Notes under the pieces: generated by a model | What the model saw: the letters and a program-made list of their open reading frames with translations, nothing else | Told to the model about the DNA's origin: nothing | The model's database searches: none | From: the human T2T-CHM13v2.0 reference genome, Homo sapiens | Assembly (NCBI RefSeq): GCF_009914755.1 | Contig: NC_060926.1 | DNA length: 64,000 nt | Direction: 5' to 3' (one strand) | Program-made: the position numbers and the translations under genes | In this document: piece after piece, positions 30,201-36,200 of the stretch | Layout: every line of letters starts with the position of its first letter | How positions within the stretch are numbered: the first letter of the stretch is position 1

Positions 30201-33200
30201 AGGTTATTCATTTTATTGGCATATAATTGTTCGTAGTAGTTTCTTATAATCCTTTGTATTTTTGTGGTATTGGTTGTAATGTCTACTCTTTCATTTCTGA
30301 TTTTATCTATTTGAGTGTTCTCTTTTTTCTTAGTCTAGCTAAGAGTTTGTTAATTTTGTTTTTAGTTTTTTCAGTAAACCAACTCTTAGTTTTATTCATT
30401 TTTTCCTATTGTTTTTCTAATCTCTGTTTCATTTATTTCTGCTTTTATCTTTGTTACTTCCTTTCTTCTGCAAACTTTGGGCTTCATTTATTACCCTTTT
30501 TCTAACATCTTTCTGTGTATCATTAGATTGCTTATTTGAAATCTTTCCTGTGTTTCAATGCAGACATTCATTGCTATAAATTTCCCTCAGGACTGCTTTC
30601 GCTGCATCCCACATGTTTTAGTACACTGTGTTTTAACTTGTTTGTCTCAATTTATTTTTTAACTTCCTTTTTATTTCTTCTTTATCCCATTGGTTGTTTA
30701 GGAGCACTTTGTTTCATTTCTGCATATGTGCATATTTTCCAAGATATTTTCTGTTTTTAGATTTCTACCTTTATGCCTTTGTAGCCCAAAATACACTTGA
30801 TATGATTTCAATTTTCTTAAAGTTGTTAAGACTTATCTTGTAGCTGAACGTATCCTTCCTGGAAAATGTTCTATGTGTACTTGAGAAGGATGTGTATTCT
30901 GCTGCTGTTGGATAGAATGTTCTGTATATGTCTGTTAGGTCCATTTGGTCAAAAGCGTAATTCAAGGCCAATTTTTGAAGTTTATTTTCTGTTTAAATGA
31001 GCTGTCCATAGTTGAAATTAAGGTATTGAGTTTCTTACTATTATTGTATTGCAGTCTATCTCTTTCTTCATTTAATAAATGCGTTATATATTTAAGCGCT
31101 CTAATGTTGGGTGCCTATGTATCTACAATTGTTATATCCTCTTAGTGAATGGACTCTTTATCATTATACAATGATCTTTCTTGTTTCTTTTTATAGTTTT
31201 TTTACTGAAAGTCTATTTTGTCTGATATAAGTAGAGCTATCCCTGCTCTCTCTTGGTTTTGGTTTGTATGGAATATCTTTGTCCGTTTTTTCCCTTCTAG
31301 TCTATATGTGTCCTTATTAGTAAATCTCTTGAAGGCAGCATATAGCTGAATTTTTAAATGTCTTTTGATTGGAGACATATTGTAAATGGTTTGATTAATC
31401 CATTTACATTCAAGGTGATTATTGGTAGATAAGCACAGGCTGTTGCCATTTTGTAACTTATTTTCTGTGTGTTTTGTAGGTTTTTTGTTACTTATTTCTC
31501 TGTTAGTATCTTCCTTTGTGTCTTGATGGCTTTCTTTGGTGCTATGCTTTGAATCTTTTATATTCATATTTTGTGCCACTACTACACGTTTTTGTTTTGT
31601 GGTTACTATGAGGCTTCCATAAAACACTTCATAACAGGCTAGTTAAGCTAATAACAACTTAACTTTATATACAACAAGTACACTTTCATTTCCTCCCCGC
31701 TACCTTTTATGGGTTTGATGTCAAATTTTACATTTGTTGTAGTTTCTGTTTCTTAATGATTAATTACAGCTAGGATTGTTTTTATTAGTTTTGTCTATTA
31801 ACCTTCATAGTAATGATAAATTGCTTTATATACCACCCTTACATTATTAATGAATTATGAATATGACTATGTATTAACTATTACCATTGAATTTTTTACT
31901 TTCATATTTTTTGTTATTAATTAGCAGGCATTCATTTCAGTTTAAATAATTCCTTTTAGCAATTCTTAAAAGTAGACCAAGTGGTGATGAACTCCCTTAG
32001 CTTTTGTTTGTCTGGGAAAGTTTAATTTCCCTCTCATTTCTGAAGGACAGCTTTGCTTGGTTGGCAGTTTGTTTGGGTTTTTTTCCTTCAACACTGAATA
32101 TATCATCCCACTCTCTCCTGGCCTATATCGTTTCTGCTGAGAAATCCACTGATAGCAATATTGGGACTTTCTTGAACATGATATGTTTCTCATCTCTTGC
32201 TACTTTCAATATTCTTTCTTTGTCTTTGAATTTTTGACAATTTGATTATGATGTATCTTGGTAAACCCCTTTTGGGTTGAATTTGATTGGCAACTTCTGA
32301 GTTTCCTATGCATGAATGTCATCTTTCCCTAGATTTAGGAAATATTCAGCTGATATTCCCTTAAATATGCTTTCTGACTTCTTTTTTCTTCCATCTTCCA
32401 AAATTCCTAATATGTGAATCTTGAAGGTGTCCCATAATTTCCATAAGCCTTTTCATTCTTTTTTCTTTTTGCTCCTCTGACTAGATAATTTCAAATGTCA
32501 TCTCTGACATCACGGATGCTTTCTTCTGCTTAATCAAATCTGCTGTTGATATTATAGTTCAGGTATTATATTCTTTATCTGTAGGATTTCTTTATTTTTC
32601 AAATACCCACACTTCAGGGAGAAGGATTTCTATTTAAAACTTTTTTTTCTATTTCTCTATTATTAAACTTTTCATTTTGTTTTGAAAATTGTTTTTAAAA
32701 TTTATTTTATTTTTATACATATTTTCTTGTAGTTTCCTAAACTACTTTAAGAGGATTATTCTGAAGTTTTGTCAGTTATTTCTTAGATCTTTACTTCTTC
32801 CTATTTCATTATGATAGCTTTCTTAGTTTCTTTTGATGGTGACATATTTCCTTGATTTTTCATAATCATTGTTCCTTGCATTGGTGCCTATGCAGTTGAG
32901 GAAACAGCCACCTCTTTTGGTCTTTGTAGGTGATCTTTGGTGGTAGCAGACCTTCACTATGTAGTCTAGCCTGGGATTCCAGGTGGGCTAGTTGGTAGCA
33001 ATCCCAGATAAGCAGACTTTGGTGTTGAGTTCTCTAGGTGGGCTTGGCTGTTTTCTGTGCACTGAGGTCAAGTGGAATTGCTTGCTGTGCTTTGCGTTCC
33101 AGTGAGACCACTTTCTGAACTCTATGGTCAGGTTGAGTCGCTGGCTGAGCTCTGTGATTGCCTCTGATCAGGCAAAATTGCAGACTGTCTTCCCAAATAG

Positions 33201-36200
33201 CCTGCAACTTTGCCTGATCAGAGGCAGTCACAGAGCAATACCCTTGTGTCTTCCATTCACCCACAACATGAAGGAATTGCTTAATTAACTAAAAGGGCAC
33301 CCAAATGCCCTACATCTGGCCGAGAAATACTGTTGTTAGAATGTGTAGTTGGGCAGGACAACAGGCTAGGCCCTGAGGCAAAGTTAGTTATCTGGGATTG
33401 CTGCTCAGCAATTTGGGATGGGCAGGGGGAGAAACTAGGCTACAAAGATGTGTGTGGGCTTGATCTTACCCCTGGGCCAGGGATAGCCTTAGGCAGGGCA
33501 TTGAGGCTTGATTGGGTTGCCACGCACCTTCTGGACCTGGGTGGGGCCAGCTGCTCCTTCTGCAGATAACTGCTGACCTGCCTTTGCCTCCTGGCCTGGG
33601 GAAGGCTGCAGGAAGGTGCTGGAGCCTGGCTGGGTCACCATGCTTGGAGATTATTAATTAAAATATTTAATGACTGAAAAAGTCAGAATTAAAGTGAGTT
33701 ATTTATTATTTATGCTACTAACTTTTTCTATATATTTTTCTAATTTCTAAAAATGTAATGAAAAAATAGCCTTGGCATAAACAAACTTCATCTTAAATAA
33801 ATAATAGTTACATGTAATGTAACGGCATTTTATGATCTTCAGCTAAGCAAATCCTTGACACAAGTCAAAATTATAATCAAGGGTAGTAGGAAAGTCTCTC
33901 CTGTACTGGCCTAGGGCACCGAGATATGAGTTTTGACGACATTGCTGTGACCTCCTGTTAGTAGGACTTGCACCTTGAATAACATTTCCATTGGTGGTTT
34001 AAGACAATCTCACTCATGCCACATTCTCTTGCCACACTTCTGACATGGCTGCTGGGTTGATTTTAAGCCCTATGTTGCATGGAAGGTTTTTGTTTGTTTG
34101 TTTTAGAGATAGGATCTTATTCTGCCACCTAGGTTGGAGTACAGTGGTGTAATCACAGCTCCCTGCAGTCTTGAACTTCTGGGCCCAAGTGATCCTCCAG
34201 CCTTAGCATCTCAAGTAGTTGGGACTACAGGCACATACCACTGCACCCAGCTAATTTTAAAAATTTTTTGTAGAGAAGGGGTTTCACTATGTTGCTCAGG
34301 CTGGTTTCAAATTCATGGTTTCAACCAATCCTCCTGCCTTGGCCTTCCAAAGTGCTGGGATTACAGGTGTGAGCCATCATGCCAACCACAAAGAAGTTTG
34401 TTTGTTTTTTGAGATGGAATCTCTCTCTTTGTCGCCTAGGCTAGAGCGCATCTAGCTCAGTGCACTGAGCTAGAGACTTGGCTCACTGCAACCTCCACCT
34501 CCCAGGTTCAAGCTATTCTCATGCCTCAGCCTCCCAAGTAGCTGGGATTACAGGTGTGCGCCACCACACCCAGCTAATTTTTGTATTTTTAGCAGAGATG
34601 GGGTTTCACCATGTTGGCCAGGCTGGTCTCCAACTCCTGACCTCAGGTGATCCACCTGCCTCGGCCTCTCAAAGTGCTGGGATTACAGGTGTGAGCCATC
34701 ATGCCGACCCCAAAGAAGTTTTGTACCTATACCTGATACTTCTCATTTCCTAGTTCTTGTAACTGGCACCTGTTGGCATCCTGTGGGCCTAGTGCTGTGG
34801 ATAACTGGTAAGCATGGTGAGACTGGCTAGATTCAAAGATTAATGTGTTTCTAAATAGAGAATAAGTTAATTTAATGTGTTTCCAAATAGGAAGAAGATA
34901 ATTTAGATTATATTTCTCAAAACTGTTTCTAGGGTTGAAACATTGGCCCATTTGATTATTCTCACTATGAACACTTCAGAACTCTGAAGATCTGGACAGC
35001 TTTCTAACACCTGTTCAAAACAATCATCTGTATGCTGTCTAACCAGCACTGAAACAGAGGAAGAATTTCCTTACTTGTTCAGAACAGAATATTGCCACAG
35101 CCCCACTATTGTTTTAGCTTTGGGACAGCCTCATTATATGGTTGATTTATTCTGAGTTGGCAGGCAAGTCTTTCCACAAAAACTGAAATCAAGCAAGTTC
35201 TCTCTATTTTTGTTTGTAGAGTAGAATTTGTAACTTATGTTCATGATTTTATATTTATTTCTGTTAAATAATTTGTTGTTTTTAGTTCATTCTACATGTC
35301 AAGAGGTTGGAATTCTGATTTTGAATGCCAACATATTAGCCATCACACGCAGGTTTGTGAGGCATGTAGATGAGATCAACATGGTATGTTCTCCCTCAAG
35401 CCCCTGCTAAAACTACGGGCGAGGCTAACACCAGGGACAGAGTGCTCTGCTGTTAACTCCAGTTTGATCCTTCTAGTTACATATGATCCATTCATCCACA
35501 ACGCAAGGGTGTTGCTTAATTAACTAAAAGGGCACTCGAATGCCCTATATCTGATCATTCAGCTCACAATGTACCTTTGGTTTAACAGAGAGATCATGAG
35601 AATATTTTTCAAGTGACTCACAATAGTGAAGATACTCTGTGTCTGCCATACTCCTGTGAACCTCCAGTCTATTCAGTTGTGGGCAACAATGAGATTGCCT
35701 TGATATGATTGTTGTTAGCAAATGCAAGCTGGCTGATATTAACCATCACTTCCTTTTCTAAGGGTTCATAAACCATCTGTTAAATAATTAATTCAAGACT
35801 TTCACTAGAAATTGACATCTAGCCCATTATCAATAATTTCCATAATATACTCCATTCCCATTAAAAGATAAATATTAGTAAAAAAAAAATCTATCAATAG
35901 AATGTTGTTAGTTGATAACTGGGGCAAGAGACTGCAACTACACTTAACGGGAAAGAGCAACATAGACAACAGAAACAGAAAAGCAAAGGGTATGTTCAGT
36001 GTATGGTCACACTGAGTGGCTCACTGTGGTGGGAGCTGAGAGTTCTTAAGTGGTTTAATTAGGACTAGAATGGAAATAAAGGTTGTGTGGTTCTCATGAT
36101 GGTTATGGGGACCTTGCTGATGTGTTTGAACTTTATGAGTGTGAGTCCTGATCCAGGACAGGACAGAAAGAAGTGGAAACAGAAAGAAGGTGGCAGATGC

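What the first reader, a model, noticed from the sequence alone, without database searches (positions are those of the whole stretch)
33149..33318. MIR4772 appears born from a complex template-switch event inside an L1 5' region
Seen: the hairpin (33149-33236) is a near-perfect inverted duplication within the antisense L1's 5' part. Fifteen bp later, 33252-33318 is an ungapped direct copy of 35487-35553, 2.2 kb downstream (57/67 identical, exact 24-bp core ttgcttaattaactaaaagggcac). L1-like sequence then appears to resume. Established: an inverted copy plus a nearby templated insertion is the FoSTeS/MMBIR signature, and template switching can create hairpins in one step. Inference: one replication accident created both the miRNA stem and the insert.
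Basis: partly seen in the sequence, partly recalled or inferred. Interest (0 to 1): 0.7.

Follow-up and report, generated by a model that had tools for sequence, protein, structure and literature searches.

The report
MIR4772 hairpin born by compound template-switch insertion
The human microRNA gene MIR4772 owes its hairpin to a 122-base patchwork insertion into an old L1 element, made of a flipped copy of the neighbouring L1 bases plus a copy of unique intron DNA from 2.2 kb away, which is a clear but not unprecedented case of a gene created by a DNA-copying accident.

Summary
Arms 33149-33186 and 33199-33236 are 35/38 complementary. 33252-33318 is an ungapped 57/67 copy of 35487-35553.

- **Setting:** the hairpin sits in the 5' part of an antisense L1.
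- **Not native to L1:** none of 29 other copies of this L1 family aligns anywhere in 33195-33315. In 18 of 18 aligned copies the L1 runs straight from 33194 to 33317.
- **One block:** the left (5p) arm is native L1. The right (3p) arm, a 15-nt orphan linker and the 67-mer form one clean 122-bp insertion with no L1 loss and no target-site duplication.
- **Not a dispersed repeat:** the 67-mer occurs only twice in the genome.
- **Local source:** the right arm carries private mutations of this L1 copy.
- **Timing:** its low divergence puts the event well after L1 integration.

A single multi-step template switch is the best reading (about 0.7). Two adjacent events cannot be excluded without primate outgroups, which these tools lack. 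MIR4772 is not in the published list of template-switch-born miRNAs. I rate it a new member of a known kind, of moderate interest.

The parts
29781..33194 (-). Old antisense L1: body and 5' region up to the insertion point. The true 3' limit of the element lies further left and was not mapped.
   Evidence: RVT_1 on the minus strand at 29781-30068, E = 2.1e-07. Homology to 29 dispersed copies covers 31500-33194 at about 64-80% identity. A review table lists miR-4772 as LINE/L1 (PMC10136691).
33149..33186 (+). Left arm of the hairpin. It is native L1 sequence and holds miR-4772-5p (annotated 33165-33186).
   Evidence: It is aligned in 18 of 18 L1 copies. It is an arm of inverted repeat I1.
33187..33198 (+). 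Apical loop. 33187-33194 is still native L1. 33195-33198 are the first four bases of the insertion and may already belong to the inverted copy.
   Evidence: The family alignment ends at 33194. The pairing table shows 33188/33197 and 33190/33195 complementary, and 33187/33198 and 33189/33196 as transition mismatches.
33195..33316 (+). The whole 122-bp insertion relative to the L1 family. Its placement is ambiguous by one C. There is no L1 loss and no target-site duplication.
   Evidence: None of 29 copies has a BLAST match inside 33195-33315. 18 of 18 aligned copies are fully gapped over 33195-33316.
33199..33236 (+). Right arm. It is an inverted copy of 33149-33186 and holds miR-4772-3p (annotated 33201-33222).
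   Evidence: 92% complementary. It shares private states of this L1 copy, for example at 33175 and 33185, and keeps the family state at 33177 and 33184 where the left arm has since mutated. In a genome-wide search its only match outside itself is the local left arm on the minus strand.
33237..33251 (+). 15-nt orphan linker of unknown template.
   Evidence: It has no other match in the 64-kb window on either strand with up to 3 mismatches.
33252..33318 (+). 67-nt direct copy of 35487-35553. Its last two bases (33317-33318) are also the first two bases of the resuming L1, so they are junction microhomology.
   Evidence: 57/67, 9 of 10 differences are transitions. for the junction.
33317..33640 (-). 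The L1 5' region resumes and runs to about the 5' end of the element.
   Evidence: Matches to 14 of 29 copies resume at 33316 or later. The furthest reach 33638-33645.
35487..35553 (+). Source of the 67-mer, in otherwise unique intron sequence of IL18RAP.
   Evidence: A genome search with 35300-35800 finds only itself and the 67-nt copy. The 67-mer has two places genome-wide.
33154..33231 (+). Annotated MIR4772 precursor, on the same strand as its host gene IL18RAP, in the intron between exons 25096-25279 and 38077-38227.
   Evidence: Hub annotation given with the finding. Fold. With pairing i+j = 66385, the annotated 5p and 3p coordinates give 2-nt 3' overhangs at both ends of the duplex.

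Best explanation
MIR4772 is an intronic miRNA gene whose hairpin was created when one 122-bp patchwork of locally templated DNA was inserted into the 5' region of an old antisense L1 in an IL18RAP intron.

Reading along the plus strand, the steps are:
1. Synthesis ran through the L1 to 33194.
2. It switched to the opposite strand and copied back over 33186 (perhaps 33190) to 33149. This made the right arm.
3. It added 15 nt of unknown template.
4. It jumped to unique intron sequence that now lies 2.2 kb downstream and copied 67 nt in direct orientation.
5. It returned, on a 2-3 nt microhomology, to the very next L1 base.

The result is a stem of 38-40 bp. The 5p arm is L1 and the 3p arm is its inverted copy. 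The stem is transcribed within the IL18RAP pre-mRNA and cut by Drosha and Dicer.

Shown:
- the insertion and its boundaries;
- the local origin of both templated pieces;
- that the event came after the L1 had diverged;
- the fold.

Inferred:
- that all pieces arrived in one event;
- the order of the steps;
- that a polymerase switching templates did it, whether at a stalled fork or during break repair.
For: (a) One clean block. None of 29 other family copies aligns within 33195-33315, and no left-hand match passes 33194. 18 of 18 aligned copies join the base equivalent to 33194 directly to 33317.

(b) Local inverted template. The right arm is 92% complementary to the left arm, while family copies are only 68-76% identical. 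The right arm shares this copy's private states: 33175 A where the family has G in 16/18, and 33185 C where the family has T in 14/18. At 33177 and 33184 it keeps the family G (14/18 and 12/18) where the left arm now has A.

(c) Local direct template. The whole insert finds only three places in the genome: itself, 35487-35553 on the plus strand at 85%, and the left arm on the minus strand at 92%. The source region is otherwise unique.

(d) No hairpin before. The equivalent ~105-nt stretches of 18 L1 copies fold at -21.0 to -38.7 kcal/mol, against -68.2 for the window hairpin.

(e) Timing. 13 differences in 105 copied positions is too few for an origin at L1 integration (binomial p = 0.0001 at the ~28% local pairwise divergence between L1 copies). 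Arm and 67-mer divergences do not differ (Fisher p = 0.37).

(f) Signs of a real miRNA. The annotated 5p and 3p give 2-nt 3' overhangs (coordinates). In passages of PMC3797812, miR-4772 species and host IL18RAP mRNA both rise in sepsis, expression is in monocytes and T cells, and there is no murine homologue.

(g) Precedent. Template switching is reported to have produced 111 candidate human miRNA loci (PMC10710096).
Against: - No outgroup genome could be examined, so co-appearance of the arm and the 67-mer on one branch is untested.
- Microhomology, expected at FoSTeS/MMBIR junctions, is seen only at the return junction (2-3 nt). I see none at the L1-to-inverted-copy junction. The two middle junctions are hidden by a 15-nt linker with no findable template.
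- The arms look less diverged (3/38, 7.9%) than the 67-mer (10/67, 14.9%). This is not significant, but it is also what two events of different age, or selection on the stem, would give.
- A systematic screen of all miRBase loci for template-switch origins does not list MIR4772 in its Dataset S1. One of its supplementary files (sd02.pdf) could not be read.
- A palindrome can itself provoke a later break at its base. Adjacency of two events is therefore less improbable than a uniform model suggests.
Confidence: 0.7

Rival explanations
1. Two separate events. A simple template switch first made the right arm and so the hairpin. Later a second, independent templated insertion placed the linker and the 67-mer exactly at the base of the hairpin, perhaps because the palindrome stalled a fork or was cut there. 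The reverse order is also possible.
For: The 15-nt orphan linker separates the two templated pieces. The arms are nominally less diverged than the 67-mer, 3/38 against 10/67. The DNA palindrome is very stable as a single strand: -47.1 kcal/mol over 191 nt, z = -9.0. That would suit structure-provoked breakage; this link is recalled general knowledge and was not tested here.
Against: No L1 base lies between the pieces, and the L1 resumes at exactly the next family position. The second event would have to hit the boundary of the first within a 12.8-kb intron. The divergence difference is not significant (p = 0.37). If the inverted copy is read as 42 nt with 5 mismatches, the two rates are 11.9% and 14.9%.
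Confidence: 0.2
2. The patchwork arose while the L1 was being integrated, through reverse-transcriptase template jumping or a twin-priming-like inversion. It would then be as old as the L1 copy.
For: L1 integration is known, from recalled literature, to produce inversions and template jumps. The hairpin lies inside the L1.
Against: The copied pieces differ from their templates at 13 of 105 positions. Two sequences separated since L1 integration should differ by about 24-30%, like this copy against its best family matches (binomial p = 0.0023 to 1.8e-05). The right arm shares states that set this copy apart from 14-16 of 18 family members. The L1 is collinear on both sides, unlike a twin-priming inversion. 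The 67-mer template is genomic DNA roughly 1.8 kb beyond the L1 5' end.
Confidence: 0.03
3. Nothing special: the hairpin belongs to the L1 subfamily, and/or the 67-mer is a piece of a dispersed repeat.
For: miR-4772 is catalogued simply as LINE/L1-derived (PMC10136691 table).
Against: None of 29 family copies aligns inside 33195-33315, so none has the right arm or the 67-mer. 18 of 18 aligned copies are gapped there. The 67-mer has two places in the genome, and the 501 bases around the source are unique. The search tool warns that it scores only the best candidates and skips very common words, so very old, highly diverged repeat membership of the source is not excluded. That would not change the result.
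Confidence: 0.02

Closest known systems
Template-switch-mutation (TSM) born human miRNAs, such as hsa-mir-4713 and the other loci in Dataset S1 of Mönttinen, Frilander and Löytynoja 2023 (PMC10710096)
   Same: An inverted copy of adjacent sequence creates a near-perfect stem in one step. The locus sits in an intron on the host gene's strand, inside or near an older transposable element. The inverted fragment (38 nt, 92%) exceeds that study's thresholds of at least 15 nt and at least 80% identity (Methods).
   Different: Here the inverted copy is only part of a 122-bp pure insertion. The insertion also carries a 15-nt orphan stretch and a 67-nt direct copy from 2.2 kb away. MIR4772 is absent from the paper's main text and from the three readable supplementary files. 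My inference is that the screen's 50-bp flanks and identity filters would handle such a long compound insertion poorly.
FoSTeS/MMBIR and serial replication slippage complex rearrangements
   Same: Several templated segments from nearby in cis, in both inverted and direct orientation, are concatenated into one novel junction block, and synthesis returns to the original template.
   Different: The scale is tens of bases rather than kilobases to megabases. Microhomology is visible at only one of four junctions. This is an ancient fixed germline event, so single-generation origin cannot be observed.
Transposable-element-derived miRNAs; miR-4772 is catalogued as LINE/L1 (PMC10136691)
   Same: The 5p arm and half of the loop are L1 5'-region sequence read antisense.
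   Different: The hairpin is neither an intrinsic L1 structure nor two neighbouring inverted elements. None of 29 family copies has the second arm. The 3p arm is a secondary copy made long after integration.
Polymerase-theta end joining with snap-back and in-trans templated insertions
   Same: Both sides of the insertion site are preserved to the base. There is a fold-back copy of the sequence next to the break, a second nearby template, possibly untemplated bases, and a final join on 2-3 nt of microhomology.
   Different: As I recall, such insertions are usually a few to a few tens of bases, while this one is 122. The enzyme involved cannot be inferred from the sequence.

Membership tests
TSM-born miRNA (criteria of PMC10710096, Methods read) | Inverted fragment of at least 15 nt with at least 80% identity to a nearby source on the other strand | tested here: met
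   38 nt, 92%. Its only match outside itself in the genome is the local left arm.
TSM-born miRNA (criteria of PMC10710096, Methods read) | No equally long hairpin in the ancestral (parent) sequence | tested here: inconclusive
   Tested by proxy only. 18 of 18 paralogous L1 copies lack the arm and fold at -21 to -38.7 against -68.2 kcal/mol. The true orthologous ancestor was not available.
TSM-born miRNA (criteria of PMC10710096, Methods read) | The event is placed on one branch of the species tree and inherited by descendants | not testable with these tools
   No primate or other mammalian genomes are reachable. The genome tool holds only the window's own assembly.
TSM-born miRNA (criteria of PMC10710096, Methods read) | The TSM locus covers at least 95% of the miRNA locus | tested here: met
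   Source plus copy span 33149-33236. The annotated precursor is 33154-33231.
FoSTeS/MMBIR-type compound template switching | Two or more templated segments from nearby in cis, joined in one novel block | tested here: met
   The inverted copy of 33149-33186 and the direct copy of 35487-35553 both lie inside one 122-bp insertion.
FoSTeS/MMBIR-type compound template switching | Microhomology at the switch junctions | tested here: inconclusive
   There are 2-3 nt at the return junction, where 33317-33318 (perhaps with 33316) are shared by the source and the L1. None is evident at the first junction. The middle junctions are obscured by the orphan 15 nt and by later substitutions.
FoSTeS/MMBIR-type compound template switching | All segments arise in a single replication or repair episode | not testable with these tools
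   This needs outgroup genomes. Divergence of the two pieces is compatible with one age (p = 0.37), but the test has little power.
TE-derived miRNA whose hairpin comes from the element itself | Both arms are present in other copies or the consensus of the element, or come from two adjacent inverted elements | tested here: not met
   None of 29 family copies aligns to the right arm. The L1 is collinear on both sides of the insertion.
Canonical Drosha/Dicer miRNA | A stem of about 35 bp with an apical loop, and a 5p/3p duplex with 2-nt 3' overhangs | tested here: met
   The stem is 38 bp with two mismatches and an inner 4-bp extension. The annotated 33165-33186 and 33201-33222 are offset by 2 nt at both ends under the pairing. 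The overhang rule itself is recalled knowledge. Reads were not examined here; expression is reported in PMC3797812.

The most novel reading that the evidence does not exclude
MIR4772 was created in a single germline accident in an anthropoid ancestor. A polymerase left an old L1, copied about 40 nt of the opposite strand, jumped roughly 2 kb to copy 67 nt of unique intron, and came back to the very next L1 base. That made a working immune-cell miRNA in one step. The systematic template-switch screen of all miRBase loci does not list MIR4772. Compound births of this kind may therefore be systematically missed, and the share of young miRNAs born by template switching may be under-counted.
Probability: 0.55. 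Interest if true: 0.55.

Novelty: new member of a known kind. Interest (0 to 1): 0.45.

Why it matters
This gives a fully dissected, base-resolved origin for a human miRNA that is studied as a sepsis and cancer biomarker. One arm is old L1. The other arm is a later inverted copy that arrived in the same block as a tell-tale passenger from 2.2 kb away.

The passenger is what makes the case useful. It marks the insertion as a templated copying accident rather than slow accumulation of stem-forming substitutions. It also gives a sharp all-or-none prediction for primate genomes.

The case corrects the catalogue label "L1-derived". The L1 supplied only half of the hairpin, and no other copy of the family has it.

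It also points to a likely blind spot in screens for template-switch-born genes. Those screens model a single inverted fragment within short flanks, and compound events may escape them.

The mechanism class is already known, however, so this is an extension rather than a surprise.

Tried and rejected
- **Rfam.** Only sub-threshold hits fall on the hairpin: mir-3122 at 46 bits against a cutoff of 92, MIR158, mir-5595 and mir-383, on both strands. This is generic long-hairpin resemblance, not family membership.
- **Template for the 15-nt linker.** Nothing else in the window matches with up to 3 mismatches. By eye, an 8-nt-gapped match to the bases left of the source gave 7/13. I rejected it as chance.
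- **Target-site duplication or poly-A at the insertion ends.** None is present (sequence), so this is not a transposon or retrocopy insertion.
- **Contiguous donor of the whole block elsewhere in the genome.** None was found.
- **Hairpin native to the L1, or 67-mer a dispersed repeat.** Both rejected.
- **Origin at L1 integration.** Rejected on divergence.
- **Literature for an age or origin of mir-4772.**
  - 218 papers, and the 20 listed are biomarker studies.
  - 4 papers, of which one is the TE catalogue.
  - 0 papers.
  - 27 papers; by title, none of the 20 listed concerns its origin.
  - 0 papers hold both mir-4772 and "template switch".
  - One search matched the bare number anywhere in the text (355 papers, 10 listed) and told me nothing.
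  - The supplements of PMC4848552 held no miRNA age table and no mir-4772.
- **Primate comparison.** Not possible, because no collection here holds primate genomes.

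
Full report
**Observation**

- The repeat finder reports inverted arms 33149-33186 and 33199-33236: 38 nt, 92% complementary, 12 nt apart.
- It also reports a 67-nt ungapped direct repeat, 33252-33318 against 35487-35553, at 85%.
- A position-by-position comparison gives 3 arm mismatches, all transitions, and 10 differences in the 67-mer, 9 of them transitions. An exact 24-nt run lies at 33277-33300.
- The plus-strand RNA of 33140-33245 folds at -68.2 kcal/mol (z = -11.8; 0 of 200 shuffles fold as well).
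- Under a uniform model, about 7.5e-8 exact 24-mer pairs and 6.6e-11 such inverted pairs are expected in the 6.5 kb examined.

**Setting**

- The flank 32850-33148 finds 40 scored places in the window's own genome at 68-76% identity (73 candidates).
- 29 of these places were fetched with flanks (L004-L032).
- BLAST of window 31500-34100 against them shows homology from 31500 up to 33194 and again from 33316 to about 33640.
- A reverse-transcriptase domain (RVT_1, E = 2.1e-07) lies on the minus strand at 29781-30068, about 3.6 kb from the point where family homology ends.
- A review table lists miR-4772 as LINE/L1 (PMC10136691, one table passage seen).
- The hairpin therefore lies in the 5' region of an old antisense L1, some 450-500 nt from its 5' end. 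It sits inside an IL18RAP intron, on the gene's strand (hub annotation).

**The key test: is either novel piece native to the L1?**

It is not.
- Across all 29 copies, no BLAST match covers any part of 33195-33315.
- 22 of 29 reach 33168 or further on the left, and none passes 33194.
- 14 of 29 resume at 33316 or later.
- I aligned the window with 18 of the 29 copies. These were the ones whose matches reached the junction from at least one side. The 11 left out were L005, L007, L011, L015, L017, L019, L023, L026, L028, L030 and L032.
- All 18 are fully gapped over 33195-33316. In them, the base equivalent to 33194 is followed directly by the equivalent of 33317.
- The window therefore carries a clean 122-bp insertion, with no L1 base lost and no target-site duplication or poly-A.
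- The block consists of four bases (33195-33198), the right arm (33199-33236), a 15-nt stretch (33237-33251) and the 67-mer.
- The last two bases of the 67-mer (33317-33318) are also the first two of the resuming L1.

**Where the pieces came from**

- A genome-wide search with the whole insert finds three places only: itself, 35487-35553 on the plus strand at 85%, and the left arm on the minus strand at 92%.
- The 67-mer alone finds two places.
- The 501 bases around the source are otherwise unique.
- The tool warns that it scores only the best candidates and skips very common words. Very ancient repeat membership of the source is therefore not excluded, but a dispersed repeat of ordinary age is.
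- Because the copy at 33252 sits where the L1 family has nothing, 35487-35553 is the source and 33252-33318 is the copy.
- Column counts over the 18 L1 copies show that both arms share states private to this L1 copy. Examples are A at 33175, where 16/18 copies have G, and C at 33185, where 14/18 have T.
- At 33177 and 33184 the right arm keeps the family G (14/18 and 12/18), while the left arm now has A.
- At 33158 the left arm keeps the family T (16/18), and the right arm has changed.
- The right arm was therefore copied from this very element after it had diverged. Both arms have since drifted by point substitution.
- The inverted copy may start as early as 33195. That reading gives 42 nt, 5 transition mismatches and a 4-nt loop. 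Two matches in four bases cannot decide this.
- The 15-nt linker has no other match in the window with up to 3 mismatches.

**Timing**

- The copied pieces differ from their templates at 13 of 105 positions, or 15 of 109 with the longer arm.
- This L1 copy differs from its best family matches by about 24-30% locally.
- An origin at L1 integration would predict that level of difference, so it is rejected (binomial p = 0.0023 to 1.8e-05).
- Arm and 67-mer divergences are statistically indistinguishable (3/38 against 10/67, Fisher p = 0.37). The test is weak.
- At 6-7% change per lineage, and using recalled primate divergences, I place the event roughly around the early anthropoid to catarrhine stem, with wide error.
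- PMC3797812 (passages seen) states that there is no murine homologue.

**What the insertion did**

- The equivalent ~105-nt stretches of the 18 L1 copies fold at -21.0 to -38.7 kcal/mol with no long stem, against -68.2 for the window.
- The stem's 5p strand (annotated 33165-33186) is L1. Its 3p strand (33201-33222) is the inverted copy.
- Under the pairing rule, the two annotated products are offset by 2 nt at both ends. That is the Drosha/Dicer signature (the rule is recalled).
- PMC3797812 (passages) reports miR-4772 species and host IL18RAP mRNA rising together in sepsis, and expression mainly in monocytes and T cells.
- This fits co-transcription with the host intron.

**Mechanism**

The anatomy has four features:
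1. an inverted copy of the adjacent bases;
2. an orphan stretch;
3. a direct copy from 2.2 kb away in cis;
4. a return to the exact next base on 2-3 nt of microhomology.

This is what serial template switching produces. Sequence alone cannot say whether it happened at a stalled fork (FoSTeS/MMBIR, serial replication slippage) or during repair of a break with snap-back and in-trans synthesis. These mechanisms are recalled from the literature and were not read here.

I put 0.7 on a single event. The main reason is that no L1 base separates the pieces and the L1 is intact on both sides.

The main rival (0.2) is a simple hairpin-forming switch followed by a second insertion at the hairpin's base. 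A stable palindrome could itself provoke such a break (DNA fold -47.1 kcal/mol, z = -9.0). The orphan linker, the lack of visible microhomology at the first junction, and the nominally lower arm divergence leave room for this rival.

**Comparison with what is known**

- Mönttinen et al. 2023 (PMC10710096) is the closest precedent. I saw the abstract, passages, Methods part 1, the supplement list and two supplement searches.
- They trace 111 candidate human miRNA loci to template-switch mutations.
- MIR4772 meets their fragment thresholds. It is absent from the main text and from the three readable supplements.
- As a positive control, 25 cells with other "mir-47.." names are found in Dataset S1.
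- The file sd02.pdf could not be read.
- No paper in the library holds both "mir-4772" and "template switch".
- The origin proposed here therefore appears not to be in print within what I could search.
- It is a further member of a known kind. Its unusual feature is the co-inserted passenger, which makes the single-event claim sharply testable.

**Verdict**

- Novelty is modest. Interest is 0.45.

Noticed in passing
window 34104-34707 (minus strand): Two tandem Alu-like elements lie between the L1 5' end and the 67-mer source. The evidence is partial Metazoa_SRP hits at 34104-34251 and 34411-34574, sub-threshold mir-1268, mir-1285 and mir-3135 hits, and direct repeats 322-323 nt apart. If they arrived after the event, the template jump was about 1.6 kb rather than 2.2 kb.
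   Followed up: no
window 33140-33245, minus strand: The minus-strand RNA of the palindrome folds better (-74.8 kcal/mol, z = -12.0) than the annotated plus strand (-68.2). Two A.C mismatches become G.U pairs on that strand. An antisense (L1-sense) transcript would also make a hairpin.
   Followed up: partly
window 31202-31642 (minus strand): A 146-codon stop-free frame lies inside the old L1 and has no Pfam match at E <= 0.01. It is probably a decayed piece of an L1 reading frame.
   Followed up: partly
window 33192-33198 and 33300-33306: The same 7-mer occurs at the L1/insert junction and inside the 67-mer copy. Two of its positions in the copy (33301, 33303) differ from the source. The identity is therefore probably a later coincidence and not junction homology.
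   Followed up: partly
window 33166-33173 and 33212-33219: Each arm contains a perfect 8-nt palindrome. In the L1 family these columns are variable (for example T 9/18 at 33169 and G 9/18 at 33170). This small quasi-palindrome existed in the left arm before the event. Whether it favoured strand switching is unknown.
   Followed up: no
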